This document shows positions 419-62,986 of a stretch of DNA of 64,000 nucleotides, piece by piece. The stretch is taken from positions 32,001 through 96,000 of the IMG/VR virus record IMGVR_UViG_3300037067_006336, one strand, 5' to 3'. Both the position numbers and the translations under genes were made by a program. The notes under the pieces were generated by a model, which saw only the letters and a program-made list of their open reading frames with translations, searched no databases and was not told the origin of the DNA. Origin of the DNA: a virus. Its lineage: Duplodnaviria; Caudoviricetes. Within the stretch, counting starts at the first letter, position 1. Each line of letters opens with the position of its first letter.

Positions 419-1957
419 TTAATGGGAACTTGTAGTTATCCCCCTTCGTTTCTTCTCGTCATCTATTTTCTTCTGCATGTTAAGGTACACGTCGGCGGCC
501 GCATCCTTGAAAATCTTGCGTTCACCTATCAACCTCTTCTCGATACGAACGTACAATGTTTCCTTGCTAACATCGTATATTCTACCTGTGGGTGTCAACG
601 CACAACCTTGACTCCTGTATTCTTCCCACTTCTTCTTATCATTGTTAGTAAGAGGGAAACCATCATGGTTAACCTGAATTGAGTCAACCTTACCGTCAGG
701 GCTGAGCCCCCCTGTTATGATACCGTTGGGGTACAGGGAATTCATGTCAACACCTATCGCGGAACCTGTTTCCTTCTTGGTGGGGTCTTTCACGTAACCC
801 CCCGGGTAAGGACGGTACTGGTTCCCGGTGTGTTCCGAGTCAAGCAACACGGTGTTCTCCATCATTAGCTGGTTGTAAACCAGTGCCTCGGATATCGCGT
901 TCTGTGTTACCATCTCGTACGCCATCGTGTTATAGTAAGACTGGAACAAGTCAACGTTAAGTAGTGATGTTTTCTTGTGAAGTAACATGACGAGGATAGT
1001 GTCTGTAAGTGCATACGCGATGTACCTCAGGTAATCGGAGTTGTATAATGTCCTCAAGTTGCCCTGGTACGATACCTTGTGCAAACCTAGTACTTCCTCT
1101 GCAACACCGTCAAGAGAGTAGTTACCCAGGCTAGAGTAAACCTGTGAACCCTTGAACAACATCATGTAATCACTGAAAATCCTGTGAGATGGTATCTTGT
1201 ATTCTATGCTGGTATTATCATTTATGTCTACCTTCTTATCCTGTAGTCTTTGCCTTGGTGATGCCTTGGCGAATGACAACCCTATCCTTGCCATCCTGTT
1301 ACACAGGTAACGCACGTCGTAATCGTATATGTTCCACCCTATATTCGTGTGGAAGTACTTGTTTACGTTCTCGCAGAATGATGATAACAGTTCGTATTCC
1401 GTCTCGAAGAACTTTACCTCGTAATTGTACTCGTGTTTCTCGTAGTAATCGCCGAGCTGTTCACGTAATATGTTGTTGATGTAACCCCTGTCAATATCAT
1501 TGATGCCGTTCAAGGTGTTGTACTTCGGGTGGTTCATGGTGAACACAACGGAATTCAATTCCTGGTCGGTAACCGTTATGGTGGTTACCGGGTTGAAAGC
1601 ATCTTCTTGAGATGAGTAACCGTGTTCATCAGTGGGGAGTACCTCGATATCAAATGATAACGGGTTAGGGAAATTCAATTTCTTTATTGCAAGATCAAGG
1701 GCAGCATCGTAATTCTTCAGGTCACGGTCAATGAAGTAATTCATGTTGTGATTCTTGAAGTAATGTGCTTTCTCCTTCATCACGTTACTACCCTTGAATG
1801 ATTTCAAACCGGGGATGACCAGGGGATGATACTCGTCACATTCAACCAGACGGTAAAAATCATCACCTATATTAACGTTTCCTACTTCGATCTGCCCTTC
1901 ATCGTTGATGAACGATATATCAATATTATCTCTTTTCTGGGAGTAATAAACTATCAT
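419..1957 (-). CDS. Family B DNA polymerase, N-terminal subunit (3'-5' exonuclease + motif A); split polymerase
   Basis: ExoI SFDIEV, ExoII GWNIYDYDVRYL, ExoIII YALTD, YPGGYV and motif A DMNSLYP are present. The protein ends after the first fingers helix (ERKIFK), with no KxxxNSxYG or YGDTDS. Confidence 0.9.
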   Translation of the reverse strand: MIVYYSQKRDNIDISFINDEGQIEVGNVNIGDDFYRLVECDEYHPLVIPGLKSFKGSNVMKEKAHYFKNHNMNYFIDRDLKNYDAALDLAIKKLNFPNPLSFDIEVLPTDEHGYSSQEDAFNPVTTITVTDQELNSVVFTMNHPKYNTLNGINDIDRGYINNILREQLGDYYEKHEYNYEVKFFETEYELLSSFCENVNKYFHTNIGWNIYDYDVRYLCNRMARIGLSFAKASPRQRLQDKKVDINDNTSIEYKIPSHRIFSDYMMLFKGSQVYSSLGNYSLDGVAEEVLGLHKVSYQGNLRTLYNSDYLRYIAYALTDTILVMLLHKKTSLLNVDLFQSYYNTMAYEMVTQNAISEALVYNQLMMENTVLLDSEHTGNQYRPYPGGYVKDPTKKETGSAIGVDMNSLYPNGIITGGLSPDGKVDSIQVNHDGFPLTNNDKKKWEEYRSQGCALTPTGRIYDVSKETLYVRIEKRLIGERKIFKDAAADVYLNMQKKIDDEKKRRGITTSSH

Positions 1958-3299: not shown

Positions 3300-4820
3300 T
3301 TACAGTATGTTCATGATGTCTTGTATCGCGCCTGCTTTAGACAGGTCGTTACCACCGATATTTTGTTGTATGCCGGCTGGGACTTGTTGCAACACCTGGG
3401 GGGCAACTTTCTGCATTGACGTTTGAACGGCGAACTGCATTGGTATTTCCTGTGATAGTTGTTGCACCACGTTCTGTTTAACTGCTTCCACTTGAGCGGG
3501 GGTAAGGTTCAACATGGCTAACCCGGTATCGAGTGCTTCCTTGACGTTCTCACCTGCCTCGATAGAAGCCATGATCTCGGAGGTTAACTCGTTTAACGTG
3601 ATTCCTCTCGATTGTAACGTTTTAGCCGTTACCTTTCCAGAATAAAGTGAAAGACCAGCTTTCAATTCCTTCAACTTAGCGTTATTATGTGATATCATTG
3701 ACTGGATCGAGCGTTTCTTGGCGGGATCATAAGAACCGCTGGCAAGCAATTCCATGTATTTCACGTTTGATTTGACAAGTTCAGAGATGCGTGTCTCGAT
3801 CTCTGCTTTCCTCGTTACCATAACGTCTTCTGGGGTGGCGTAAGGTTTCAAGATGTAATCACTGATCACTGGATCACCCACCTTGGCTAGTAATGATGTG
3901 GCGAGTTCGATGTCACCATCGTTGTACATGTCTGCTGCCGTAGCAACGACTTTCTTCAGGTTAGGTGGCAAGGCGGCAATCTTGGCTTTCGCGTCAGAAT
4001 TCACGTTACCAAGGTCAGACTCGTACTTCTCCATGGCGGCTATAACATCATCGATGTTACCTGCTCCTGTCAACCCGAACTGTTTACCCAGGTTGGCTAT
4101 CTGGCGGATTTCAGCCTCGGTATTGAATTTCGATTGCTGTAACCCGGCACGTTTCTGCTCGATGCTCGCTATCTGGGCATTTGCCGCAGATATCAACTTG
4201 GCTTTTTTAGCTTTCAACTCGGCCTTGATCTTCTCTGGCGTGCGTTTGTCCTCTTTAGCTTTGTTTAGTTTCTCTTTCTTGGCTGCCGTCATCAATGCAC
4301 CCGTGCGGACTGCTGACTCACCTGTACACATCAGGATGAACATAGCCCCGGGTATGGCGTAACGTTTCGATGCTGCTTTCTCGAACGTTGTCACGATGGA
4401 TTGTCCGGAAATAACATTAGTTACTGTTTCATCTAACGTGTCCCCGAAATTGTTAACGTCCTTGTCAGGCATCACCACAAGAGCCACGATTGAATCGTCA
4501 TTGTTGAACGATGCCTTGTCAGCATCGTTCAACCCGCCGACGAACTCCTCGATCTTCTCTGCACCATCGTTGAACAAGTACCCGTATGACTTGAAACCTA
4601 TGAGCTTGAAGTTGGGTGCTTTCTTGGCACCGGCAGCACCCTTGCTTGCAGATTTCAACAAGTAAACGTGGTTCATCACCTTGGCGATGACATCCGGTCG
4701 TTTCAAGATAGTCTGCAACACGGTTGCATCAAGACCGTGACTGCCGAGAATAGCCCTCGGGTTTTCCTTTACCTGTTCCAGGGTGTTAGCCAGGAACTCC
4801 TCTTTAGTTATTTTTCCCAT
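3300..4820 (-). CDS. hypothetical Ala/Lys-rich coiled-coil protein (~506 aa), probably highly expressed
   Basis: Likely start is ATG 4820 (MGKITKEE) after an A-rich leader. The gene has its own promoter box, structured leader and terminator. Confidence 0.75.
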   Translation of the reverse strand: MGKITKEEFLANTLEQVKENPRAILGSHGLDATVLQTILKRPDVIAKVMNHVYLLKSASKGAAGAKKAPNFKLIGFKSYGYLFNDGAEKIEEFVGGLNDADKASFNNDDSIVALVVMPDKDVNNFGDTLDETVTNVISGQSIVTTFEKAASKRYAIPGAMFILMCTGESAVRTGALMTAAKKEKLNKAKEDKRTPEKIKAELKAKKAKLISAANAQIASIEQKRAGLQQSKFNTEAEIRQIANLGKQFGLTGAGNIDDVIAAMEKYESDLGNVNSDAKAKIAALPPNLKKVVATAADMYNDGDIELATSLLAKVGDPVISDYILKPYATPEDVMVTRKAEIETRISELVKSNVKYMELLASGSYDPAKKRSIQSMISHNNAKLKELKAGLSLYSGKVTAKTLQSRGITLNELTSEIMASIEAGENVKEALDTGLAMLNLTPAQVEAVKQNVVQQLSQEIPMQFAVQTSMQKVAPQVLQQVPAGIQQNIGGNDLSKAGAIQDIMNIL

Positions 4821-4845
4821 TGTTAGTAAAATTAAATTGTTGATT

Positions 4846-4976
4846 AACCAAACCCCGGTTCCCGTGGCGTTGGCGCTTTTCACCGATCTCTCGGCTCGTT
4901 CCCAAGGTTACTAGCGTGTCGCGACCAACACCACCAACCCGCGGGAACCGTACACGCGGCCCGTTCCAACCGGTTA
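4846..4976 (-). ncRNA. candidate structured cis-regulatory RNA (5' leader)
   Basis: GC-rich intergenic segment. Nested stems GGUUCCCG/CGGGAACC and UGGUGUUGGUCGC/GCGCCAACGCCA, a CCGA-GAGA-UCGG GNRA hairpin, and alternative pairings. Confidence 0.55.
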
Positions 4977-52538: not shown

Positions 52539-53702
52539 ATGAGTTCTAAAGATTTGTTAAAGCAGTCCTTGTTAACGTCACAAGTTGTTGACGATGGCAA
52601 GAAAATCGCCGTGAAAGCGGATGACATCCAACAAGGTTCAAGTATCGACTGGGACAAGATTTACTTCGAGCCACAGCCAGGTAACACGTACCTTGTCAAG
52701 TTGCTCCCGGTAGCGGAGGCAGAGTTACCCACGACTACTAACATAGAGAACAGGCGTTCTTACAAGAAATTACCCGATCCAGAAAGAAGGGGTAAGAACT
52801 TGATGTACATCTCATCCAACGTTAGTAACACTTGTGCAGCACTTGAGACGTTCTTTAGCTTGAACGACCTGAAGAAATCAGGGGATGTTCTAGCGGAGAA
52901 GAAAATCAAGACATACATGAGTAGTTCTACGGAAAATTGCGTCAAGATTCAAGTACTTGATTCTCCTAAACGCGAGGAAATAGGCATCATCCGGTTAATG
53001 AAATTCCAGGCTGGTGGACAGAATGCAACCTTTACAAACATGATCGACGCGAAGTTAAACCCTAGCGAGGCCAAGAAGAAAAATGGTGATATTAGAGAGG
53101 ACTTGTTCAATATCTTCGGTTCATCAATCCTTTGTATCGAGTGCAAGAAGGCAGTTATCGACGGTGAGGAGGTACGGGATTTCACGGCATCATCATGGCT
53201 TGATAAGGCTAACCAGGTAAAGGGTGCAATAGGTATCACCAAGGACGGTAAAACACACCAGTTCAGTACTGCTGACCTCGTTAAAGGTGAATTGAAACCA
53301 GAGGTTATGCCATTCTTCGAGGCATTCTTCGAACAGTTGACCGACCCTGCTATCAGCATGTTCCGGTTCTTCTGTTACAAACCTATTGATCATCCTTCAA
53401 ACGATGAGGAAACCGTGAAATACCTCACGAAGAATCACGAGAAAGTTGCAAGGGTATGCAAGATCATACTTGATGCCAAAAATATCGAGGAAATCGCAAC
53501 ATCTTGCAAGTCTGACGCTAGCCCTGATGCTAGAAGCGAGAAGCAAGTCAAGAACGAGTCAGGTAAGAACGTGATTACCGACAATGTCCCAGACGAGTTG
53601 AAAGGATCTATCGTGGACAGTACCACTAATACCAAGGAAACATCCAAGAAAGATGATTCAGTTGCAGGTTCAGACCCGGCAGCCGATATCCTGAATTCTT
53701 AA
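52539..53702 (+). CDS. single-stranded DNA-binding protein (gp32-like)
   Basis: IYFEP..GNTYLVKLLP, C...ETFF, IQVLD.P, G.IRLMKF, EDLFNIFG, DFTASSW; flexible tail; terminator downstream. Confidence 0.7.
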   Translation: MSSKDLLKQSLLTSQVVDDGKKIAVKADDIQQGSSIDWDKIYFEPQPGNTYLVKLLPVAEAELPTTTNIENRRSYKKLPDPERRGKNLMYISSNVSNTCAALETFFSLNDLKKSGDVLAEKKIKTYMSSSTENCVKIQVLDSPKREEIGIIRLMKFQAGGQNATFTNMIDAKLNPSEAKKKNGDIREDLFNIFGSSILCIECKKAVIDGEEVRDFTASSWLDKANQVKGAIGITKDGKTHQFSTADLVKGELKPEVMPFFEAFFEQLTDPAISMFRFFCYKPIDHPSNDEETVKYLTKNHEKVARVCKIILDAKNIEEIATSCKSDASPDARSEKQVKNESGKNVITDNVPDELKGSIVDSTTNTKETSKKDDSVAGSDPAADILNS

Positions 53703-53705
53703 ATA

Positions 53706-53741
53706 GGGGGAGGGGACGTGATACTACGTCCCTTTCCCTTT
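53706..53741 (+). terminator. intrinsic terminator
   Basis: GGGAGGGGACGT-GATACT-ACGTCCCTTTCCC-TTT. Confidence 0.7.
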
Positions 53742-53762
53742 AAATAAAAATACGAAAACATC

Positions 53763-55325
53763 ATGAAATTCACGTTCGCCCAGGGTAAGGTAAAGGGGAG
53801 GGATTTCGTCGGTATATCCGGTATGAAGACAAGGGAAGACTTCGAGATGCACGACATCATCAAGAAAACCCTGTCAAGGACAGAGTACATGCCGTTCGTA
53901 CAGGGGTTCAACAAGAACGTTCACGAGTCGTACATGTTTTACCAGGATACCGTGTTCCCGTTACAGTTCTGGCAGGATGTAAAAGATAACCTGGTTAAAT
54001 TAGGTCACAAGGTAAATTTCGAGAACGAGAACGATTATCTAGCTAATTTCAATGATATTTCAAGGGAAGATTTCAACGAGTGGTTACAATCTAAACGATT
54101 CCCTGAAGATATAGACACCGTTTCAGAAGAATACAAGTTCCAGAGGGACTCGGTGTATAAAATACTGGTGGAGAAAACAGGTCACGCCAACATCTCGATG
54201 AGTGGTGGCAAGACATTCATAATATACTTGTTCACACGTTACCTGAAGGATCACTATATGTTACCACCAGGAAAACAAGTACTGCTGGTACTTCCTGACA
54301 AGGGGCTCGTGAAACAAACTAAAAACGAGTTCGACAAGTTTGACACGTTTGAAACGGGAGATAAGATAAAGGTGTCAAGCGTGTTCTCCGGTTCCAAACA
54401 AGTAAGTGGTGCCGATATAGTTGCAGGGACGTTCCAATCGCTCGGGAACTACGAGGAGGATTTCTTCGACAACATCCACGCGATGATATGTGACGAGATG
54501 CACCGGGCGAAGATGTTCACCATACGCAACGAGATTTATTCCAAGATAAGGAACGCTGGTTATTTCTTCGGGTTGACTGGAACAGTACCGAGGTATAATA
54601 CCATAGATTACCTGCATACAACCGCGATGTTCGGGAGAGAACTAGTCAAGGTAACAACCCGGCAGTTGATAGATATGAAACTAGCCACACCGGTTAATGT
54701 CAGGATACTATCATTGCAGTATGATGAGGATAGCAAGTTGTTCTCCAGGAGATTGAAGGAAAAAGGACTAACCGGCAACTTGAAATACATAGAGGAATGT
54801 GGTTTCTTCAGGTCAAATGAATCAAGGATACGAGTTATAGCTAAGCTCATGAATTCAGAAGAGTTCAAGTACAACACATTGATAGTGGCGAACTCGGTAT
54901 CATACCTTTACAGGATAAAAGAAATACTGGATGAATATTGCCCGTTATGGACCATAAAGATAATACACGGGTCACACGAAGAATACGGTGAGGTGAAAAA
55001 CAGGTTGGATATAATAGAGGAAATGAAGGTAAATGACGGTCATTTCTGCATAGTTGCCACTACACAAACGATGGGAACAGGTGTATCGATAAAGAACCTG
55101 GAGAATATTTACATGCCTGATGGTGGTAAATCAGAGAACAATGTCAGGCAGGTATTCGGAAGAGGTATGCGTTTATTACCACGCAAGAAAGATTGTAACC
55201 TGTTCGATTTCCGGGATGAGATACCCGGGTCATCGTTCTTGCAACACTCGATAGAACGAGAGAAGATTTACAAGGAACAAGACATACCTTACAAGCACTT
55301 GAAGGTTGATCTCTCAAGGTTTTAA
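53763..55325 (+). CDS. uvsW: SF2 DNA helicase (UvsW-like)
   Basis: SGGKT, GTFQSL, DEMH, GLTGT, GTGVSIKNL, QVFGRGMR. Confidence 0.85.
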   Translation: MKFTFAQGKVKGRDFVGISGMKTREDFEMHDIIKKTLSRTEYMPFVQGFNKNVHESYMFYQDTVFPLQFWQDVKDNLVKLGHKVNFENENDYLANFNDISREDFNEWLQSKRFPEDIDTVSEEYKFQRDSVYKILVEKTGHANISMSGGKTFIIYLFTRYLKDHYMLPPGKQVLLVLPDKGLVKQTKNEFDKFDTFETGDKIKVSSVFSGSKQVSGADIVAGTFQSLGNYEEDFFDNIHAMICDEMHRAKMFTIRNEIYSKIRNAGYFFGLTGTVPRYNTIDYLHTTAMFGRELVKVTTRQLIDMKLATPVNVRILSLQYDEDSKLFSRRLKEKGLTGNLKYIEECGFFRSNESRIRVIAKLMNSEEFKYNTLIVANSVSYLYRIKEILDEYCPLWTIKIIHGSHEEYGEVKNRLDIIEEMKVNDGHFCIVATTQTMGTGVSIKNLENIYMPDGGKSENNVRQVFGRGMRLLPRKKDCNLFDFRDEIPGSSFLQHSIEREKIYKEQDIPYKHLKVDLSRF

Positions 55326-55360
55326 AACGATATTAAGTAAATAAATTTAAATAATCCTTT

Positions 55361-55843
55361 ATGGATGATAACCAGCAAACATCAGAACACGTTGTTGAAA
55401 CAGGGATGGTAGATGGCATTTACGTGAAGTTATCAAGCCAGGAGAACTCATCTAATTTCGACGTTAATACATTGTTATTATCGGCACATGAATCAGTGAA
55501 ACGAAACGTTCACGGGGTTTTGAAAAGCGTTGAAACCAAGGTACTGCTTAATGATGTCACCACGCTTAACAACGTGCTTGTTGCATCTTACAAGGATTTC
55601 AAGCATAAGACAGGTTTCAACAACCTGGCTATCGTTTTCACCGCGTATTGTGATTATTTCGGGACAGATTACCACGATACTTACACCCGGTTGCACGATA
55701 AGATGAAGGAAGAGATAAAACGTACATCGGTCACCGTACTGGGACATGATGTCATGGATAACATGAACCGGCTTCACGGGGAAAAGAAAGAAATACCCAC
55801 GCTAGCGGAATTACTCAAGATAAAGAGGGAAAAACACAAGTAA
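55361..55843 (+). CDS. hypothetical protein
   Basis: 160-aa ORF. Confidence 0.65.
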   Translation: MDDNQQTSEHVVETGMVDGIYVKLSSQENSSNFDVNTLLLSAHESVKRNVHGVLKSVETKVLLNDVTTLNNVLVASYKDFKHKTGFNNLAIVFTAYCDYFGTDYHDTYTRLHDKMKEEIKRTSVTVLGHDVMDNMNRLHGEKKEIPTLAELLKIKREKHK

Positions 55844-55846
55844 GGC

Positions 55847-56545
55847 ATGATACAACCTGGCATAAAGTACGATTTCAAGCAATTGCTAACAGCATTGACA
55901 GCAATAGTGGCGGACATGGAGTTGAAGTTACAATCAATCATGGTCGATCTACCGGTATTCGTCCTGCAAACAGGTGACACATCGTACTGGATGACCAAGA
56001 AATTCGAGAAGATCGAGATTAGTGATGCTTCCAGGGAGATATACAACAAGACACCCAGGTTTATCATAACCGTGGGTGATTTCGACATAGCACTTGACCA
56101 GTTATCGAGCAAGTACAACAAGCTTACATACAAGTACTCTAACAGTGTTTACATGACAAGTTTCAGGCGTATGCCGTTCACGGTGATACTACAAACATCG
56201 TTAGTTTGCCCCAACTTCATAGATTACCTGGAGAACATGATGGTGCTGAACTCCCTGTTTTACTCCAGGGAGAATTACCTGACGTACGAGTTCGGGGGTA
56301 GCACGTATGATACCTCGTACAACTACCAGAACCCGGGGAAATCCGAACCGGACATGAACGCCGGTAGCACCAGGAACTTCACGATCAACACGTCTTTCGA
56401 GTGCAAGGTTCACGTGTCCACACCCAGGGTTGAAACCATTAAACTACTCGATACAAGCGGTGACTCGGTTGTGTTTGATGTAACGGAAAAAGACGGGGAA
56501 GATAACTCGCTAGATATGACGTACCAGGTTGATTCCAGCTTGTAA
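55847..56545 (+). CDS. tail terminator/sheath stabiliser (gp15-like)
   Basis: TPRFII....D......L, RMPF.V...., D.LE....L..FY, then a TSFE strand, matching the gp15-type order. Confidence 0.55.
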   Translation: MIQPGIKYDFKQLLTALTAIVADMELKLQSIMVDLPVFVLQTGDTSYWMTKKFEKIEISDASREIYNKTPRFIITVGDFDIALDQLSSKYNKLTYKYSNSVYMTSFRRMPFTVILQTSLVCPNFIDYLENMMVLNSLFYSRENYLTYEFGGSTYDTSYNYQNPGKSEPDMNAGSTRNFTINTSFECKVHVSTPRVETIKLLDTSGDSVVFDVTEKDGEDNSLDMTYQVDSSL

Positions 56546-56563
56546 AACAGATATTATTAAATC

Positions 56564-57136
56564 ATGATACATAATTACATGTCAAATGTTTACGCGTACC
56601 TTGAACGATTCAGGGACGTGCGTTTCTTCACGAAGAAAAAAGCCATCATTCATTTCTTTTTATCACCTTGGTTCGTTTTACTGGAGTCAGTTGTTTACCG
56701 TTACTACTGGAAGAATCTAATAATAACCGAGCTGTTAACGTCGGACCCCATAGTTGAATTCTTGGACAAGAACGAGTTCGAGTACAAGGGTAACAAGTTA
56801 ATCAAGATAGACCTGTTATCATCGAACGAGTTTTACAACAGGACGAAATTAAGGGAGGCAGAGGATATAATATGGAAGGATTTCAAGGATGCATTGATGA
56901 ACCTCCTACCAGGTAACGTTTCATTCAACGTGGAGGATTACATCACCTTGCTCGTTACATGTGATACCAGGAGTATAAGAAGCGGAAACGAGATAGCATC
57001 ATCAAAGATTTACACGGTCGAGATATACTTCTGCCGTTTACCATTCTACAAGGAGACCATGAAGAAGTTTAAATCATGGGTATTGATGGTGACCATCATG
57101 ATAGGAATACTCCTAGTTGCAGGATATATTTTTTAA
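56564..57136 (+). CDS. membrane protein
   Basis: N- and C-terminal hydrophobic segments. Confidence 0.6.
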   Translation: MIHNYMSNVYAYLERFRDVRFFTKKKAIIHFFLSPWFVLLESVVYRYYWKNLIITELLTSDPIVEFLDKNEFEYKGNKLIKIDLLSSNEFYNRTKLREAEDIIWKDFKDALMNLLPGNVSFNVEDYITLLVTCDTRSIRSGNEIASSKIYTVEIYFCRLPFYKETMKKFKSWVLMVTIMIGILLVAGYIF

Positions 57137-57158
57137 CCAATCATAATTTAATATAATC

Positions 57159-58718
57159 ATGGAAAACATCGAGAAAAAATCTCTCGTGGACCTAGTTCAG
57201 GAAATATCCCACGAGTACCTTGAGGAACCTGGAAAGGTCACTGAAATACTGGGGATGACCAGGGCTGAAAACGACAGTACGCCTTTGAGTGTTGAGGCTT
57301 ACAAGGCAATAGGAGCGTTAACATACCTGATAGGGAAGGATTTCACCTCGTCTCCCTACCCCACGGAAAAGGTGTTGACAAGGTGGCGTGAACGTTTCAA
57401 CGGCATAAATAAACAGGTATTTGATAACGTACTTTCATACATCATGACAGGTGTCATCACGGACACCAGGTTACGGGACGCCAAGGAATCGATGCATTGT
57501 CAACTTGACAAGACATGGGTTATTACCCCTGTTATCATGAACGAGTTACGTAGACATGTTGCAACCATATTCCGGGACTCTGAACTAGCCTCTAATTACG
57601 CGGTTCCGGTTAAGGAAATAATGCAGTTGAAGGAGTACACGTATTCAGACATATTGAAGATCAACTCGTTATTCATGAATAACATCGAGTTCAAGAGTAA
57701 CGCCATGAAATCTTACATCAAGCTTTACAGTGCAAAAGACTGGACAGATGCCTTGAACAAGGGGGTTAAACTTGCTGATGAGCGCAAGTTATCAGTGTTA
57801 TTACAAGACGCGATACTAACCTTCCAGTACCACGTTACCCGTTACCAGGAGTTTTACAAGATCACCGGGGTAGGTGAAATAATTAACAACATGTTCGACA
57901 TCGTGTTTGATGCTAACCTGCCTCTTGATGAACTAAACGTTCTTGAAGGAAAATTGAAGGAACTATACGACGTGCATGTTTCAAGTAACCCGGAACCCGT
58001 GGTAATGAAAGTTAACAAGGAAGATTCCATCACGGAAAAGATAGATAGTTCCAGGGAAGATAACCCATCTGGGTTCATTTACCTCACTATTGCCGATGCC
58101 AATGATCTTTCAACAGGTGAGTTGAACACCCCTGAATGCCTTAGATCAGCACTAGGTAACCTGCTAGGTGACGCTGCTTACACATCTAACCTGTACGAGT
58201 ACGTGGTAAGGAACACGAACAGCAACAAGTTCGGTGACATAAAATCAATCAGCGGCAACATGAACATGGATGACTTCAAGGAAACCTTGAATAACATCAT
58301 GGAGGAACGCAAGAAAATCTACCAGGATAATATCAAGTTCATTTGTAACAAGATAGACCCTGCAATAGAGAACAGGTTGAAAACATTGCTGACAAGCGTT
58401 ATAACCGATGCTATAACCAGTACCCCCGAACAGAAATCGGTAATAGCATCGTACCTTACCGGGATGCAGGTACAAACCTACCTTCATGTTCACCAGTTGA
58501 TAGCGGTTATCGAGAACTGTCGCACGTCCAACTACCAGTCGTACGCTGCCCTGTACGATTACCTTAATACCAATGATACAATGAAGAGGGTCTCAGAAAT
58601 TGCGGTTGAATCTAACAACATGTCCACAGGGATATCCTTGATATCTGCTATCTTGAAATTCATCGAGAAGGCCGAAGCACCAGTTGTGGTTGAAGATGTT
58701 GCAATAACTAATGAATAA
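57159..58718 (+). CDS. hypothetical protein
   Basis: 519-aa helical ORF. Confidence 0.7.
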   Translation: MENIEKKSLVDLVQEISHEYLEEPGKVTEILGMTRAENDSTPLSVEAYKAIGALTYLIGKDFTSSPYPTEKVLTRWRERFNGINKQVFDNVLSYIMTGVITDTRLRDAKESMHCQLDKTWVITPVIMNELRRHVATIFRDSELASNYAVPVKEIMQLKEYTYSDILKINSLFMNNIEFKSNAMKSYIKLYSAKDWTDALNKGVKLADERKLSVLLQDAILTFQYHVTRYQEFYKITGVGEIINNMFDIVFDANLPLDELNVLEGKLKELYDVHVSSNPEPVVMKVNKEDSITEKIDSSREDNPSGFIYLTIADANDLSTGELNTPECLRSALGNLLGDAAYTSNLYEYVVRNTNSNKFGDIKSISGNMNMDDFKETLNNIMEERKKIYQDNIKFICNKIDPAIENRLKTLLTSVITDAITSTPEQKSVIASYLTGMQVQTYLHVHQLIAVIENCRTSNYQSYAALYDYLNTNDTMKRVSEIAVESNNMSTGISLISAILKFIEKAEAPVVVEDVAITNE

Positions 58719-58723
58719 TTAAT

Positions 58724-58752
58724 GGGGGAGGTGGTTTTAAACCCCTCCCCTT
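58724..58752 (+). terminator. intergenic hairpin (terminator-like)
   Basis: GGGGAGG...CCTCCCC stem with a poor U-tract. Confidence 0.45.
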
Positions 58753-58767
58753 CCAAAAACTAGGAAA

Positions 58768-59559
58768 ATGAGAAACTGGATAAAGAAATTCAACTCGACG
58801 GTCAGGTTCATAGTATCGATAATAGCATCCCGTGAATTCGCCTTGATATACTGTTTGCTTGGGACGTTCACGCAGATAGCGCACACGTACTTCCTGGCAG
58901 AATCGATATCATCATTCGTCGGGTTCTTCAAGGTGTTCCAGGCTACCTTACTATCAACATTCATATCATCATCTTTATTGTACTTCGTATCGATAGCTGA
59001 TAACAACGAGACAAGGGAATCAAGGAATATCAGGATAGCAGTTAATGTTTTCATGTACATCGAGATACTTATAAATCTGTATTACTACACGAGACACTTG
59101 ATAATAGATGCTCCCGAGATGAGGGTATTTGATTTCATATTCGCTTCCGTTATATCAACGTTGATACCTGTTACCATCAAGTTGTACGCTTCTCATATAC
59201 GGGCTAAAGAATGGTTTGATGATATGATGAGGGAGGAAAATGACGCCGAGGTAAAACAAGTTGAAAACGTCACAGGTAATGATGCAACCATACTCGTGGA
59301 GCAATTAAACATGTTGCGAGAATCCCTCCTGGAAGAAGTAAGGATGGAGGTAAAAAATGAGGTTGTGAAAATGAAGTCACCTGACCCCAGCATTGAAGAT
59401 ATAAACATGAAACTAGGGGAATTCGAGAAGAACATCGATAAAACCGTATCAGATGTTTTCAAGGAGAAGGAGAAGTTGTTTCTAGGACAGTTCGAGAACA
59501 AGTTGAAACTCATGATGAACACCACACAGGGAAGGGCATTAAACGGTATGAACCAATGA
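58768..59559 (+). CDS. membrane protein (about 4 TM) with C-terminal coiled coil
   Basis: Hydrophobic N-half, charged helical C-half. Confidence 0.65.
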   Translation: MRNWIKKFNSTVRFIVSIIASREFALIYCLLGTFTQIAHTYFLAESISSFVGFFKVFQATLLSTFISSSLLYFVSIADNNETRESRNIRIAVNVFMYIEILINLYYYTRHLIIDAPEMRVFDFIFASVISTLIPVTIKLYASHIRAKEWFDDMMREENDAEVKQVENVTGNDATILVEQLNMLRESLLEEVRMEVKNEVVKMKSPDPSIEDINMKLGEFEKNIDKTVSDVFKEKEKLFLGQFENKLKLMMNTTQGRALNGMNQ

Positions 59560-59574
59560 TAATAACAATTAGTA

Positions 59575-60528
59575 ATGGAAAGTAAAAACGAAAACCAGCT
59601 TTTAATAAACCAGTATTTCCCCCGCGAGTGGGATGATTTGATACTACCGGTAAACACGTTGAAGAAACTAGAATCCGTGCGTGGAACCAGGGGTTACAGG
59701 TTATTGTTGTTCTCATCACCCGGGACGGGGAAGACAACGACATCCCGTTTACTAACCAAGGGGCATGATACCTTATACCTGTCTGGCTCAAACGATTATA
59801 ACATAACCACGCACCGGGAGAAGGTGGTGGCGTTCGCTTCCGGACACTCCGTTTCAGGGAAACAGAAGACAGTTGTGATAGATGAGGCAGAGAACATCAA
59901 GGATGCCTTGCAAGATGCCTTCAAGATAATATTCGACTCGGCTAAATCAACCAATTTCATATTCATAACCAACGAGGTAGAGAAGATAAACACGGCGTTG
60001 AAATCAAGGTTCTCAACCATAGATTACGATTTCACCGGGAGTGAACTAGAGGAACAGAAGAAAAAATACACTAATTTCTTCATAAAGGTTTGTGACGAGA
60101 ATAATATAAGGTTCGATAACAAGGGTGCCAAGCTAATTATCGAGAACCATTTCCCCGATATCCGTCACATGCTGGTAATGTTACAAGATTTCCTTGATTA
60201 CGGCTACGACGTAACCGTGGAGAACTTCAAGAAACTTAACGATAGTGGTAAACAAAATATCGAGTTGTACAACTTGGTAGAGAATTGCGTGAAGATATCA
60301 CCAAAGGAATTCTTCGAGACACTGGTAAAATTCAAGGGGAAGGAACGAGAATGTCTCATGTCTCTTGGTGAACCTTACTTCGAGTACCTTAATTCCAAGG
60401 GTATGTACGACAAGACCATTGATGCGTGTGAAATTGTTTCTAAATGCTCCTACGAGTACACGTTCACGATAAACAAGTTCGCGTCTTTTTATGCATGTTG
60501 TGTCGCGTTGTCAACATTGTTTCGTTAA
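59575..60528 (+). CDS. sliding-clamp loader AAA+ subunit (gp44/RFC-like)
   Basis: YFP..WDDLIL, SPGTGKTT, VVIDEAE, FIFITN, LKSRF, FPDIR. Confidence 0.9.
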   Translation: MESKNENQLLINQYFPREWDDLILPVNTLKKLESVRGTRGYRLLLFSSPGTGKTTTSRLLTKGHDTLYLSGSNDYNITTHREKVVAFASGHSVSGKQKTVVIDEAENIKDALQDAFKIIFDSAKSTNFIFITNEVEKINTALKSRFSTIDYDFTGSELEEQKKKYTNFFIKVCDENNIRFDNKGAKLIIENHFPDIRHMLVMLQDFLDYGYDVTVENFKKLNDSGKQNIELYNLVENCVKISPKEFFETLVKFKGKERECLMSLGEPYFEYLNSKGMYDKTIDACEIVSKCSYEYTFTINKFASFYACCVALSTLFR

Positions 60529-60539
60529 ATTGGAACGTC

Positions 60540-61097
60540 ATGATAACATTCTTCTTACCGTTGAAACCATCAAGCGTTAGACCGAAGAGGTCAGTTATCC
60601 TAACACATATAAGGTCGGTTATAGGGCGTGATTTCGACCATGTTATACACCCGGTGGATATGTTCATCGATAACGACGTACTTGGGACGGTGTCAGGGAA
60701 AGACGTGTGCATCTTCCACCCGCTGGTGGCGCATGATAACCTTGACACGATAAAATTACTCAAGAACAAGGTGGTAGTGTTGGAGAAGCCGACGATACTT
60801 GTCCAGAAAGAATCCAGGCAATTCAACCCGTTCAACGAGAACAAGGCACTTATACATGACATGATGGTATTATACATCAACCCGGGCATGTTAGATATTA
60901 CCAACGATGAATACAAGATAGTTGCTAACCGGGAGAATTTTATACTTTCAAATGATGACTTTCGTAATTACGTCGAGAGCAGGGGAGTTGTAACGGTTAA
61001 CGGGGGGATTGTTGAACCCGGCAGGATAAATGAATTTTCCCTGGCATCTGCCAGGGCTAACTTACCAAATATAATATCAGATGATAGAAGAAAATAA
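60540..61097 (+). CDS. hypothetical protein
   Basis: Likely start ATG 60540 (MITFFLP). Confidence 0.6.
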   Translation: MITFFLPLKPSSVRPKRSVILTHIRSVIGRDFDHVIHPVDMFIDNDVLGTVSGKDVCIFHPLVAHDNLDTIKLLKNKVVVLEKPTILVQKESRQFNPFNENKALIHDMMVLYINPGMLDITNDEYKIVANRENFILSNDDFRNYVESRGVVTVNGGIVEPGRINEFSLASARANLPNIISDDRRK

Positions 61098-61764
61098 TAA
61101 CTGGGAGCGTAAGATTGACATGTTCACGTGGGGTCTATCAGGTTCAGGCAAGGATACTATCTGTAACGCGTTAAAAAAACGCGGTGTCTTAACGTTGAGG
61201 ATAGCACGTACGATCAAACAGGTTATATGCGAGAAGTATGACATCACGATGGAAGAACTCGATCATTTGAAGAGGTTCAACCCTGCTTTCAGGGAATTAC
61301 ACCGTGATGTACAGGTTTACCTGGAAACGCTTGATAAGTCGGTATCAGGTGAAGATGTTGTTGCCGAGGGACCGATGAACCGGTTAAAACAGTTGGTAAA
61401 CTACACCGCTTTCGATTACGACATGTTACCAGCATCCACGCTCATGTCTTTCCCCAGGGTCATAGTTGATGTCAGGAAGATCGACGAGGTGAGGATGTTG
61501 TTGAAATCAGGTTTCCATGGCATCTTCCTTACCCGTATACCAACCGAGCACGTGATACAAGGGCACCCGACAGAGGTTTACCTTCCATTACATGAAGTCA
61601 TGATGGAGTTCGAATCCCAGTACCCTTATCAAATACACCTGATTGACAACAGAGTAACTAGTGAACCAATACCCTTCACCTGTATGCCGGAAATTACTTG
61701 CATAGATTCAAGTGCAAACAAGTTGATCAATGCAGCTTTCAATGTTATTAATAATATCAAGTAA
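61081..61764 (+). CDS. deoxynucleoside monophosphate kinase-like (gp1-type)
   Basis: GLSGSGKDT, IA..IKQ, VIVDVR..DE, HPTE. Confidence 0.75.
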   Translation: MIEENNNWERKIDMFTWGLSGSGKDTICNALKKRGVLTLRIARTIKQVICEKYDITMEELDHLKRFNPAFRELHRDVQVYLETLDKSVSGEDVVAEGPMNRLKQLVNYTAFDYDMLPASTLMSFPRVIVDVRKIDEVRMLLKSGFHGIFLTRIPTEHVIQGHPTEVYLPLHEVMMEFESQYPYQIHLIDNRVTSEPIPFTCMPEITCIDSSANKLINAAFNVINNIK

Positions 61765-61777
61765 ACATATCCAAACC

Positions 61778-62986
61778 ATGCCTAACATCCTGATAATAGA
61801 CGGTGATTTCTTCGCCAACCGGGTCATCGGTCGTCTCAATTCTAAATCAAAGGTCAACTCGCTATCTAACTCCATGGAGGTCTCCAACTTCAATGCCGAG
61901 TTGTGGAACGTGTTGATATCTGACATAGAGGCTTTCTCCCCTTACATAACTAACGTTGTTTTCGTGGCGGATAACTCCACGTGGCGTAAATCCGTTATAC
62001 CTTTCAACCCATATCACGTCAAGGAAGGTTCAAGAGTAGGATACAAGGAAACACGTGAAGACAAGAAAAATAACCTACCTTACGATTACACGACGTTCAA
62101 GAACGTGTATCATTCTTTCTTAACCGAGTTATCGAATAGTGGGATGGTTCCGGTTATAGACATCAAGGGTCTCGAGGGTGATGATAACATCATGCTGGTT
62201 GCCGACAAGATGAAAGGGAAGGGTAACTGCATCATATTCGGTTCGGATATCGACGTGTCACAAGTTGTCAAGGATAACGTGTTTTACTACCGTCACATCG
62301 TATCCAAGGATGCACCTGAAGGGGAGTTCATGGTATCCAGGAACACGTACGATATCATGTTCAACCAGGATATAAAATCACGTTTGCTAGGTGGTTCTAA
62401 CCTGTCATACATTAACTCGTTGATGTCATTCAGCTTTGATGACAAGAAACCTGTAAGGAGGGAAAAGGATACCGGCATAAGGGTAGCTGAACCATTCAAG
62501 ACAGCATTGATAAAGGTTATCACGGGTGACAAGAAAGACAATATATTCCCTCTTCTAGGATGGGATGCCAGCACGGGTACACGCAAGTTCGGTGTTACCG
62601 AGAACCATCTATCAAAGGTGTTGAAACTACACGGTCTCGAGTTAACAGAGGAAGTTTGCATATCTTTGTTGAAAGACAAGGAGATGATGGAGAACCTGCT
62701 AGTGGGTTTGAGATCGGAAACCGGTCAGGTGGATAATGTAAAGATGGATTCATTGTTCAACCATTTCAAGCACAACATGAGGATGAAGTTCTTGAATGTC
62801 TCGTTCACCCCGCAGGATATAAGGGATGAGTTCGACAAGTGCTGGGAAACAATATCCCCGGTATTACTTTACAACGAGTTGGAAACTGGAAAACTGACAT
62901 CGTTCAGGAAGAAACAAAGTGACCCTGGAAAACAGGTGATAAGCGGTAACGTTCCGGATGAATTGAAGAATTTAACAATATCATAA
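61778..62986 (+). CDS. 5'-3' exonuclease / RNase H (T4 Rnh, FEN-like)
   Basis: LIIDGD, YKETR, LEGDD, GSDID, GDKKDNI; likely start ATG 61778. Confidence 0.88.
   Translation: MPNILIIDGDFFANRVIGRLNSKSKVNSLSNSMEVSNFNAELWNVLISDIEAFSPYITNVVFVADNSTWRKSVIPFNPYHVKEGSRVGYKETREDKKNNLPYDYTTFKNVYHSFLTELSNSGMVPVIDIKGLEGDDNIMLVADKMKGKGNCIIFGSDIDVSQVVKDNVFYYRHIVSKDAPEGEFMVSRNTYDIMFNQDIKSRLLGGSNLSYINSLMSFSFDDKKPVRREKDTGIRVAEPFKTALIKVITGDKKDNIFPLLGWDASTGTRKFGVTENHLSKVLKLHGLELTEEVCISLLKDKEMMENLLVGLRSETGQVDNVKMDSLFNHFKHNMRMKFLNVSFTPQDIRDEFDKCWETISPVLLYNELETGKLTSFRKKQSDPGKQVISGNVPDELKNLTIS

What the first reader, a model, noticed from the sequence alone, without database searches (positions are those of the whole stretch)
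53562..62968. Shared peptide motif GKxVIxxNVPDELK in the tails of SSB and the 5'-3' exonuclease
Seen: SSB has KQVKNESGKNVITDNVPDELKG (53562-53603) and the exonuclease C-terminus has KQSDPGKQVISGNVPDELKN (62927-62968). That is 11 of 14 identical residues in two unrelated folds. The DNA differs at most synonymous positions (ggt/gga, aag/aaa, att/ata, aat/aac, gtc/gtt, cca/ccg, gac/gat, gag/gaa), so conservation is at the protein level. Known: T4 uses a common short hydrophobic tail motif for clamp binding, and this motif does not resemble it or a PIP box. Inference: a new replisome docking motif for a common partner (clamp, helicase, or the SSB itself).
Basis: partly seen in the sequence, partly recalled or inferred. 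Interest (0 to 1): 0.75.

Follow-up and report, generated by a model that had tools for sequence, protein, structure and literature searches.

The report
Shared docking peptide: phage SSB and exonuclease
In a group of large uncultured phages, the DNA-coating protein (SSB) and the primer-removing flap exonuclease carry the same short conserved peptide in their floppy tails. It probably lets both plug into one site of the DNA-copying machinery, but that site was not identified.

Summary
GKNVITDNVPDELK (53562-53603) and GKQVISGNVPDELK (62927-62968) share 11 of 14 residues. Only 2 of the 11 identical residues use the same codon.

- **Chance:** such a match between unrelated proteins is expected 0.02 times per shuffled proteome.
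- **The two proteins:** one has the fold of T4 gp32 (SSB), the other that of T4 RNase H (a flap endonuclease). The motif lies in low-confidence tail regions of both models.
- **Conservation:** the motif, roughly [ND]-[IV]-L-x-x-S-[IVL]-P-[DE]-E-L-x-G-S-[VI], is kept across both families at 30-47% identity. A matrix built from SSB tails alone finds 35 of 56 exonuclease tails, and the reverse finds 33 of 42. It finds none of 120 polymerase tails.
- **Carriers:** no other ORF carries it in this genome or in the related loci.
- **Co-variation:** the two copies vary together within genomes (10 pairs, p about 7e-4).
- **Second motif:** in some relatives the exonuclease also ends in the SSB's other tail motif (xDDILNx*), which resembles the T4 gp32 tip.

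The best reading is that the exonuclease tail mimics the SSB tail. It is not the T4-type clamp motif, which this clade's polymerase carries instead. The partner is unknown because the complex predictor was unavailable. The scan has noted similar SSB/exonuclease peptides in SP6-like phages. This is a new variant of a known principle (T7, T4).

The parts
52539..53702 (+). gp32-type single-stranded-DNA-binding protein (387 aa): conserved N-terminal peptide, OB-fold core to about residue 322, disordered tail 326-387
   Evidence: No Pfam or PHROG hit. AF2 model has pLDDT 75. Foldseek finds T4 gp32 core 1gpc (E 1.2e-9, TM 0.70 by target) and RB69 gp32 2a1k. 20 orthologues at 38-47% identity.
53562..53615 (+). 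Motif A in the SSB tail: GKNVITDNVPDELKGSIV (residues 342-359)
   Evidence: P351 and E353 are invariant, and S349 and L354 nearly invariant, in an otherwise variable tail. The motif is kept in the 50%-cluster representatives closest to the profile (P0202-P0221) and not recognisable in the tails of the more distant gp32 homologues I read. pLDDT is 26-39 here.
53679..53699 (+). Motif B, the C-terminal tip of the SSB: AADILNS* (family consensus xEVDDILNs*)
   Evidence: Conserved at the extreme C-terminus of all orthologues and, as DDxLxxL-type tips, in distant gp32 homologues. T4 gp32 ends ...DLDDLLNDL*.
61730..62986 (+). T4 RNase H-type 5'-3' exonuclease / flap endonuclease (418 aa; the real start is probably M17 at 61778)
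   Evidence: PF02739 E 2.3e-10 and phrog_107 E 3.5e-17. AF2 pLDDT 89.6. Foldseek finds T4 RNase H 3h8j (E 5.9e-10, TM 0.71 by target). Acidic residues D81, D151, D152, D173, D175 are invariant. The database gene call is 402 aa.
62927..62983 (+). Motif A in the exonuclease C-terminal tail: GKQVISGNVPDELKNLTIS* (residues 400-418)
   Evidence: The tail after about residue 385 has pLDDT 50-69, with short helices 399-407 and 410-413 either side of P409. The motif is present in most of 56 orthologue tails.
53763..55325 (+). UvsW-like SF2 helicase, directly or closely downstream of the SSB gene in every related locus that holds the SSB and extends past it. Candidate reader of the tails; context only.
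   Evidence: PF04851, PF00270, PF00271; phrog_16 E 4e-55. Synteny. T4 UvsW binds the gp32 acidic tail (Perumal et al. 2013, as summarised in PMC5314882).
59575..60528 (+). gp44-type clamp-loader subunit (context: implies a sliding clamp, which was not found)
   Evidence: phrog_168 E 2.9e-43. No match to the gp45 families PF02916 or PF09116 in the record, which is 73% complete.
419..1957 (-). N-terminal half of a split family-B DNA polymerase. The C-half lies outside the window at genome 28349-29617(-). Its tail ...ETDAMNFLNGIKPLNVISRSRK* lacks motif A.
   Evidence: PF03104 E 1e-13, phrog_2062 and phrog_1918. Tails of 120 C-half orthologues end ...DIEHFLLGVKQWNF*, and 0 of 120 score for motif A.

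Best explanation
Motif A is a clade-specific short linear interaction motif of about 16 residues. It probably forms a helix, a proline kink and a second helix, and it is amphipathic and acidic. It sits in the disordered C-terminal tails of two functionally linked replication proteins: the gp32-type SSB and the T4 RNase H-type flap endonuclease.

The exonuclease tail is a mimic of the SSB tail. In some lineages it reproduces the whole SSB tail layout: motif A, a linker, then the C-terminal tip xDDILNx*. So whatever surface reads the SSB tail also binds the exonuclease.

The likely result is recruitment of the exonuclease to SSB-coated lagging-strand gaps, and mutually exclusive binding (hand-off) with SSB during primer removal.

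- **Shown:** the motif, its tail location, its conservation, its restriction to these two proteins, and its co-variation.
- **Inferred:** that it binds a protein, and which one.

My ranking of readers is: SSB core about 0.3, a helicase such as the adjacent UvsW-like enzyme about 0.25, polymerase, clamp or clamp loader about 0.15, another protein about 0.15.
For: - **Real and non-random:** 11/14 identity against 0.02 such pairs expected in shuffled proteomes. Codons differ at 9 of 11 identical residues.
- **Different folds:** gp32 core and T4 RNase H.
- **Tail location:** pLDDT 26-39 in the SSB and 50-69 in the exonuclease.
- **Island of conservation:** P351 and E353 are invariant in a variable SSB tail. 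P409 is invariant in the exonuclease set, which I had pre-selected for motif carriers.
- **Cross-validated:** a matrix built only from SSB tails detects 35/56 exonuclease tails above the 99.9th background percentile. The exonuclease-only matrix detects 33/42 SSB tails. Polymerase tails score 0/120.
- **Only two carriers:** a profile of the motif hits only SSB and exonuclease among all six-frame ORFs of the genome and of the 24 related loci scanned.
- **Co-variation:** same-genome SSB/exonuclease motif identity is 0.347 against 0.268 for permuted pairs (10 genomes, p = 6.7e-4). Examples are VI..NVP in both copies here and SGTNVLA in both copies in L001.
- **Whole-tail mimicry:** SSB P0021 and exonuclease P0064 lie on one contig and both have motif A, a linker, then a ...D(S/D)IL(N/G)G tip. 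L002 and L035, from one 208-kb contig, show the same.
- **Precedents:** T4 gp32 residues 248-270, in the equivalent tail position, bind Dda as a helix (PMC11551737). The T4 gp32 tail binds UvsW. T4 RNase H binds the gp32 core (PMC3012046).
Against: - No binding was tested and no partner was identified.
- The co-variation signal rests mainly on three of the ten genomes (G000, L001, L029). In L006, L009 and L036 the own-genome pair is no better than foreign pairs.
- About a third of exonuclease orthologues have weak or proline-less versions, such as NVLEQSLENLL*.
- A hub site would usually have more than two clients.
- The genome record is only 73% complete, so further carriers could be missing.
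Confidence: 0.65

Rival explanations
1. Self-directed version. Motif A of the SSB docks on the SSB core, its own or a neighbour's in the filament, to regulate DNA binding. The exonuclease copy binds that same core site, so the exonuclease inserts at or caps SSB filaments. No third protein is involved.
For: Exactly two carriers, one of them the SSB itself. T4 RNase H binds the gp32 core and is stimulated by gp32 (PMC3012046). The acidic, hydrophobic character fits tails that fold back on SSB cores; the T7 gp2.5 and E. coli SSB examples are from my own knowledge. The SSB N-terminal cooperativity-type peptide of this genome (SKDLLKQSLL) loosely resembles motif A.
Against: The AF2 model of the full-length SSB does not dock the tail on the core; pLDDT is 26-39 there, though the alignment is shallow. 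The N-terminus resemblance is weak across orthologues: the mean score is only about 1.4 sd above background and 30% exceed the 95th percentile. In T4 the contact is made by the folded C-domain of RNase H, not by a tail.
Confidence: 0.3
2. Helicase reader. Motif A docks on a RecA-like domain of a phage helicase, either the UvsW-like enzyme encoded next to the SSB or the 1381-aa helicase-like protein. This couples strand displacement to SSB loading and flap cleavage.
For: The positionally equivalent helix of T4 gp32 binds the 2A domain of Dda through hydrophobic contacts. T4 UvsW needs the gp32 acidic tail. SSB and UvsW are adjacent or near-adjacent in all related loci that hold the SSB and extend past it.
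Against: There is no precedent for a FEN tail binding UvsW or Dda. No Dda homologue was detected: PF13604 gave only a 14.5-bit match. The whole replication module is syntenic, so adjacency is weak evidence. Motif A does not match the V-x3-L-x2-F pattern of T4.
Confidence: 0.25
3. Clamp-binding motif. Motif A is this clade's PIP-type peptide for the sliding clamp, as in FEN-1 C-termini.
For: Eukaryotic and archaeal FEN-1 carry a C-terminal PIP box, and T4 RNase H binds gp45 by a terminal peptide. A clamp loader is encoded at 59575-60528.
Against: The clade's polymerase tail carries a different, T4-like motif (...DIEHFLLGVKQWNF*, against T4 gp43 ...SLDFLFG*), and 0 of 120 polymerase tails score for motif A. 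Motif A fits neither Qxx[ILM]xxFF nor (S/T)LDFL(F/L). In the SSB it lies 36 residues from the end. No clamp gene was found. If any tail element is clamp-directed, motif B is the better candidate.
Confidence: 0.1
4. The shared peptide is not a docking site for a replisome protein. It could be another kind of signal, such as targeting to a replication compartment or membrane anchor, a degron, or a modification site.
For: A conserved four-helix membrane protein sits inside the replication module at 58768-59559. A weak TubZ-like hit lies next to the polymerase. Both hint at spatial organisation.
Against: Only two proteins carry it. A localisation or turnover signal would be expected on more replication proteins. 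The SSB-tail position matches the known protein-recruiting domain of gp32.
Confidence: 0.08
5. Chance resemblance, or a recent copy of DNA between the two genes, with no function.
For: One exact shared 7-mer is not rare in a proteome of this size: about 3.4 are expected.
Against: Only 0.02 pairs with at least 11/14 identity are expected by chance. Synonymous differences at 9 of 11 identical residues argue against a recent copy. The motif is conserved in both families at 30-47% overall identity.
Confidence: 0.02

Closest known systems
Bacteriophage T7 acidic C-terminal tails of gp2.5 (SSB) and gp4 (helicase-primase) that dock on gp5 polymerase/thioredoxin
   Same: An SSB and a second replisome protein of unrelated fold carry similar flexible tail peptides that address one surface. 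The gp4 tails bind basic patches on gp5 (PMC12593628). That the gp2.5 tail uses the same partner is from my own knowledge.
   Different: Here the second protein is the flap exonuclease, not the helicase. The motif is a defined 16-residue pattern with an invariant proline rather than an acidic run ending in Phe. In the SSB it is internal to the tail. The partner is unknown.
T4 gp32 C-terminal (A) domain: the helix 250-264 that binds Dda, and the acidic tail needed by UvsW, gp59, gp43 and gp61
   Same: Same SSB family by fold. Same tail layout: a conserved hydrophobic-acidic segment soon after the core, a low-complexity linker, then a DDxLxxL-type tip.
   Different: Motif A has a different sequence pattern and is restricted to one clade of gp32 homologues. 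I found no report of T4 RNase H carrying a copy of the gp32 tail. This SSB also lacks the gp32 zinc ligands: there is no invariant Cys or His in A1.
T4-type clamp-binding peptides shared by gp43, gp33, gp55 and the N-terminus of RNase H; PIP box of FEN-1
   Same: One short terminal peptide shared by unrelated replication proteins, including the FEN-family nuclease.
   Different: Motif A does not match these patterns and is absent from the clade's polymerase tail, which has its own T4-like motif.
Bacterial SSB C-terminal tip (SSB-Ct, ...DDDIPF)
   Same: A conserved peptide at the end of a disordered SSB tail acts as a hub for many partners, and it can also fold back on the SSB core (own knowledge).
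   Different: Different SSB family, different sequence, and in bacteria the partners do not themselves carry the peptide.

Membership tests
T4 gp32-type SSB | OB-fold core superposable on gp32 (1gpc) | tested here: met
   Foldseek E 1.2e-9, probability 1.00, TM 0.70 by target; RB69 gp32 is also found. There is no sequence-level hit in Pfam, PHROGs or PDB.
T4 gp32-type SSB | Structural zinc site (His64, Cys77, Cys87, Cys90 in T4) | tested here: not met
   No invariant or nearly invariant Cys or His among 20 orthologues.
T4 gp32-type SSB | Disordered acidic C-terminal domain ending in a conserved DDxLxxL-type tip | tested here: met
   The tail 326-387 has pLDDT below 50. The tip AADILNS* has family consensus EVDDILNS*; T4 has DLDDLLNDL*; distant homologues share it.
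T4 RNase H / FEN 5'-3' exonuclease (PF02739) | N-terminal resolvase-like nuclease domain, FEN fold and conserved metal-binding aspartates | tested here: met
   PF02739 scores 40.9 bits against a cut-off of 34.3. Foldseek finds T4 RNase H 3h8j at E 5.9e-10. D81, D151, D152, D173 and D175 are invariant.
T4-type clamp-binding motif / PIP box | Terminal (S/T)LDFL(F/L) or Qxx[ILM]xx[FY][FY] peptide, shared with the replicative polymerase tail | tested here: not met
   Motif A fits neither pattern. Polymerase C-half tails end DIEHFLLGVKQWNF* and 0 of 120 score for motif A.
T7-type shared acidic tails (gp2.5 / gp4) | Acidic run ending in an aromatic residue at the extreme C-terminus | tested here: not met
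   Motif A lies 36 residues from the SSB end and has no terminal aromatic residue.
T7-type shared acidic tails (gp2.5 / gp4) | The same tail peptide on the SSB and on a second replisome protein, both docking on one partner | tested here: inconclusive
   Sharing and co-variation are shown.
T4 gp32 Dda-binding helix (residues 248-270) | Amphipathic helix with V-x3-L-x2-F contacts that binds an SF1B helicase | tested here: inconclusive
   The position in the tail is equivalent and short helices are predicted. The pattern differs, and no Dda homologue was found in the 73%-complete record.

The most novel reading that the evidence does not exclude
Flap exonucleases of several unrelated phage groups have independently copied the tail peptide(s) of their own SSB. 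This clade did so at the C-terminus, with motif A and in some lineages motif B. Earlier notes of this scan report that SP6-like phages did so at the N-terminus. SSB-tail mimicry would then be a general, undescribed way of handing the lagging-strand gap from SSB to the primer-removing nuclease. Here motif A would define a new reader site, either on the SSB core or on a helicase.
Probability: 0.35. Interest if true: 0.65.

Novelty: new variant of a known kind. Interest (0 to 1): 0.5.

Why it matters
How the primer-removing nuclease finds its place on SSB-coated lagging strands is only partly understood, even in T4. There, contacts between RNase H and gp32 and between RNase H and the clamp are known, but parts of the structural evidence are unpublished.

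A conserved, co-varying peptide shared by the SSB and the nuclease gives a defined handle of about 16 residues. It also shows that the gp32 tail is modular: an ancestral tip plus clade-specific motifs.

Tried and rejected
- **Complex prediction:** I sent complex prediction a job with SSB core, UvsW-like helicase and exonuclease tail.
- **Search for the sliding clamp:** The 263-aa gene upstream of the clamp loader is a conserved four-helix membrane protein, not a clamp. The 232-aa gene shows no similarity to T4 gp45 by profile comparison (probability 0.2%), and its Atlas model resembles T4 gp15-type tail proteins. PF02916 and PF09116 found nothing. The 519-aa conserved protein stayed unexplained.
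- **Other replisome proteins:** No DnaB-, RecA- or Dda-type proteins were found in the record.
- **N-terminus idea:** The idea that motif A mimics the SSB N-terminal cooperativity peptide has only weak support.
- **Searches for close relatives:** Single-protein scans of IMG/VR found no close relatives. The SSB has no tblastn match in the phage collection. An alignment-based scan then gave 13 loci.
- **Other motif B-like ends in this genome:** the 163-aa protein at genome 11236-11727(-) and the 527-aa protein at window 3300-4883(-). I did not follow them up and they may be chance.
- **Recent gene conversion:** rejected on codon usage.
Full report
**Observation**

The ORF at 52539-53702(+) has 387 residues and contains GKNVITDNVPDELK at residues 342-355 (window 53562-53603). 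The ORF at 61730-62986(+) has 418 residues and contains GKQVISGNVPDELK at residues 400-413 (window 62927-62968), nine residues before its stop. Eleven of the 14 residues are identical.

NVPDEL occurs only twice in the six frames of the 162,117-bp genome. Six pairs of gene products have a 14-residue window with at least 11 identities. I take the other five to be paralogue pairs. One hundred shuffled proteomes gave a mean of 0.02 such pairs. A shared exact 7-mer alone would not be significant, since about 3.4 are expected.

**Identity of the two proteins**

The 387-aa protein has no Pfam, PHROG or PDB sequence match.
- Its AF2 model (20-sequence alignment, pLDDT 75) matches the T4 gp32 core (1gpc, E 1.2e-9, TM 0.70 by target) and RB69 gp32.
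- Residues 326-387 are disordered in the model.
- The gp32 zinc ligands are not conserved.

The 418-aa protein matches PF02739 and phrog_107.
- Its AF2 model (pLDDT 89.6) matches T4 RNase H (3h8j, E 5.9e-10).
- It is well folded to about residue 385.
- Residues 386-418 have pLDDT 50-69, with short helices either side of P409.

So the labels "SSB" and "5'-3' exonuclease" both hold, and the motif lies in flexible tails of both.

**Conservation**

Twenty SSB orthologues at 38-47% identity keep the motif as an island in a variable tail. P351 and E353 are invariant; S349 and L354 are nearly so. The consensus is kNiLaeSxPDELkGSv. A profile search of 1.84 billion cluster representatives shows the motif in the representatives closest to the profile (P0202-P0221). 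It is not recognisable in the tails of the more distant gp32 homologues I read, which keep only the C-terminal tip.

Most of the 56 exonuclease orthologues (29-42% identity) end in variants such as GTNVLADSIPEL*, TNILSQSLPDLPDELKGF and SIINESIPDELL. A minority have proline-less forms such as NVLEQSLENLL*.

Cross-validation gave these results against the 99.9th background percentile:

| Matrix built from | Tails scored | Detected |
|---|---|---|
| SSB tails only | exonuclease orthologues | 35 of 56 |
| exonuclease tails only | SSB orthologues | 33 of 42 |
| SSB tails only | polymerase C-half orthologues | 0 of 120 |

A profile HMM of the motif hits only the SSB and the exonuclease among all six-frame ORFs of this genome and of the 24 related loci scanned.

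**Co-variation**

I compared the SSB and exonuclease motifs in ten genomes where both tails were recovered. Same-genome identity is 0.347 against 0.268 for permuted pairings (p = 6.7e-4). With the first six pairs alone it was p = 0.03.

The signal comes mainly from this genome (VI..NVP in both copies), from L001 (SGTNVLA in both) and from L029. In L006, L009 and L036 the own-genome pair is no better than foreign pairs. In L001 the codons also differ at 6 of 9 identical residues. This fits co-evolution with a common surface, or old short-patch exchange kept by selection.

**A second shared motif**

All SSB orthologues end in xEVDDILNs* (AADILNS* here). This resembles the T4 gp32 tip DLDDLLNDL* and the tips of distant gp32 homologues.

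Several exonuclease lineages have motif A, a 15-25-residue linker and then the same tip. An example is SFIDDILNA* in L002. Another is P0064, which lies on the same contig as SSB P0021. The exonuclease tail therefore copies the architecture of the SSB tail, not just one peptide.

**What it is not**

The polymerase is a split family-B enzyme. The N-half is at window 419-1957(-) and the C-half at genome 28349-29617(-). Its orthologues end in ...DIEHFLLGVKQWNF*, which resembles the T4 clamp-binding ends of gp43 (SLDFLFG*) and gp33 (TLDFLL*).

Motif A is absent from these tails and fits no PIP pattern. A clamp-binding role for motif A is therefore unlikely. Motif B is closer to the polymerase motif.

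No clamp gene could be found. The gene in front of the clamp loader encodes a membrane protein. The record is 73% complete.

**Mechanism**

Three T4 precedents frame the options:
- The segment of T4 gp32 in the equivalent tail position (residues 248-270) forms a helix that binds the Dda helicase (PMC11551737).
- The T4 gp32 acidic tail is needed for UvsW.
- T4 RNase H binds the gp32 core and is made processive by it (PMC3012046).

My best-supported reading is that motif A is a docking peptide, and that the exonuclease mimics the SSB tail so that both address the same reader. This would recruit the nuclease to SSB-covered gaps and make binding mutually exclusive. That it binds a protein at all is inference.

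I rank the candidates as follows:
- **SSB core:** there are only two carriers, and T4 offers a precedent.
- **A helicase:** a UvsW-like gene sits directly or closely downstream of the SSB gene in every related locus that holds the SSB and extends past it.
- **Polymerase, clamp or clamp loader.**

The one tool that could test binding was unavailable.

**Comparison and novelty**

Shared tail peptides that organise a phage replisome are known in two systems: the acidic tails of T7 gp2.5 and gp4, and the T4 clamp-binding ends. The gp32 tail is also a known recruitment domain.

Three things appear new:
- this specific motif;
- its restriction to a clade of large uncultured phages, whose nearest cultured relatives (Tenacibaculum phages PTm1 and pT24, Sphingomonas phage PAU) share only 22-27% identity in the exonuclease;
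- the finding that the flap exonuclease copies the SSB tail.

Earlier notes of this scan report analogous peptides shared by SSB and exonuclease at the N-termini of SP6-like phage proteins. I did not re-test those notes. If they hold, this is a recurring solution. I class the finding as a new variant of a known kind, of moderate interest.

Noticed in passing
window 58768-59559 (+): A conserved 263-aa protein sits inside the replication module, between a 519-aa unknown and the gp44-type clamp loader. Its conserved, hydrophobic N-terminal half looks like about four membrane helices, followed by a variable charged region and a conserved FLxQFENK segment. It occupies the place where T4 has the clamp gene. 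It might anchor replication to the membrane.
   Followed up: partly
window 419-1957 (-) and genome 28349-29617 (-): The family-B DNA polymerase is split into two genes about 2.8 kb apart, with four small ORFs (222, 152, 186 and 312 aa) between them. All 120 listed C-half orthologues are also stand-alone proteins of 406-471 aa; only proteins of 232-739 aa were searched.
   Followed up: partly
genome 26913-28331 (-), outside the window: A 472-aa protein just downstream of the polymerase C-half has a weak TubZ-like C-terminal domain match (PF22453, E 0.0012, below cut-off). It is possibly a phage tubulin.
   Followed up: no
T4 locus L005 and L023; window 53679-53699: The C-terminal tip of T4 gp32 (TDLDDLLNDL*) resembles the T4 clamp-binding ends (gp43 SLDFLFG*, gp33 TLDFLL*) and the clamp-binding N-terminus of RNase H (MDLEMMLDED). 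Likewise, this clade's SSB tip (EVDDILNS*) resembles its polymerase tail (DIEHFLLG). The gp32-family tip may be a clamp-type motif.
   Followed up: partly
window 55847-56545 (+): A conserved 232-aa gene in the middle of the replication module has an Atlas model that resembles T4 gp15-type tail-sheath stabiliser proteins (TM 0.65). That is an odd location for a tail gene.
   Followed up: no
window 57159-58718 (+): A 519-aa protein is conserved in every related locus between the SSB/UvsW genes and the clamp loader. It has no Pfam, PHROG or Atlas match, and its Atlas model is poor (pLDDT 0.40).
   Followed up: partly
genome 113559-117704 (+), outside the window: A 1381-aa protein has weak SF2 and P-loop helicase matches around residues 677-824. 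It may be the replicative helicase or a primase-helicase, since no DnaB-type helicase was found.
   Followed up: no
genome 11236-11727 (-) and window 3300-4883 (-): Two further proteins end in motif B-like peptides: QDIDEILNHE* (163 aa) and AIQDIMNIL* (527 aa, late-gene region). They may be chance matches.
   Followed up: no
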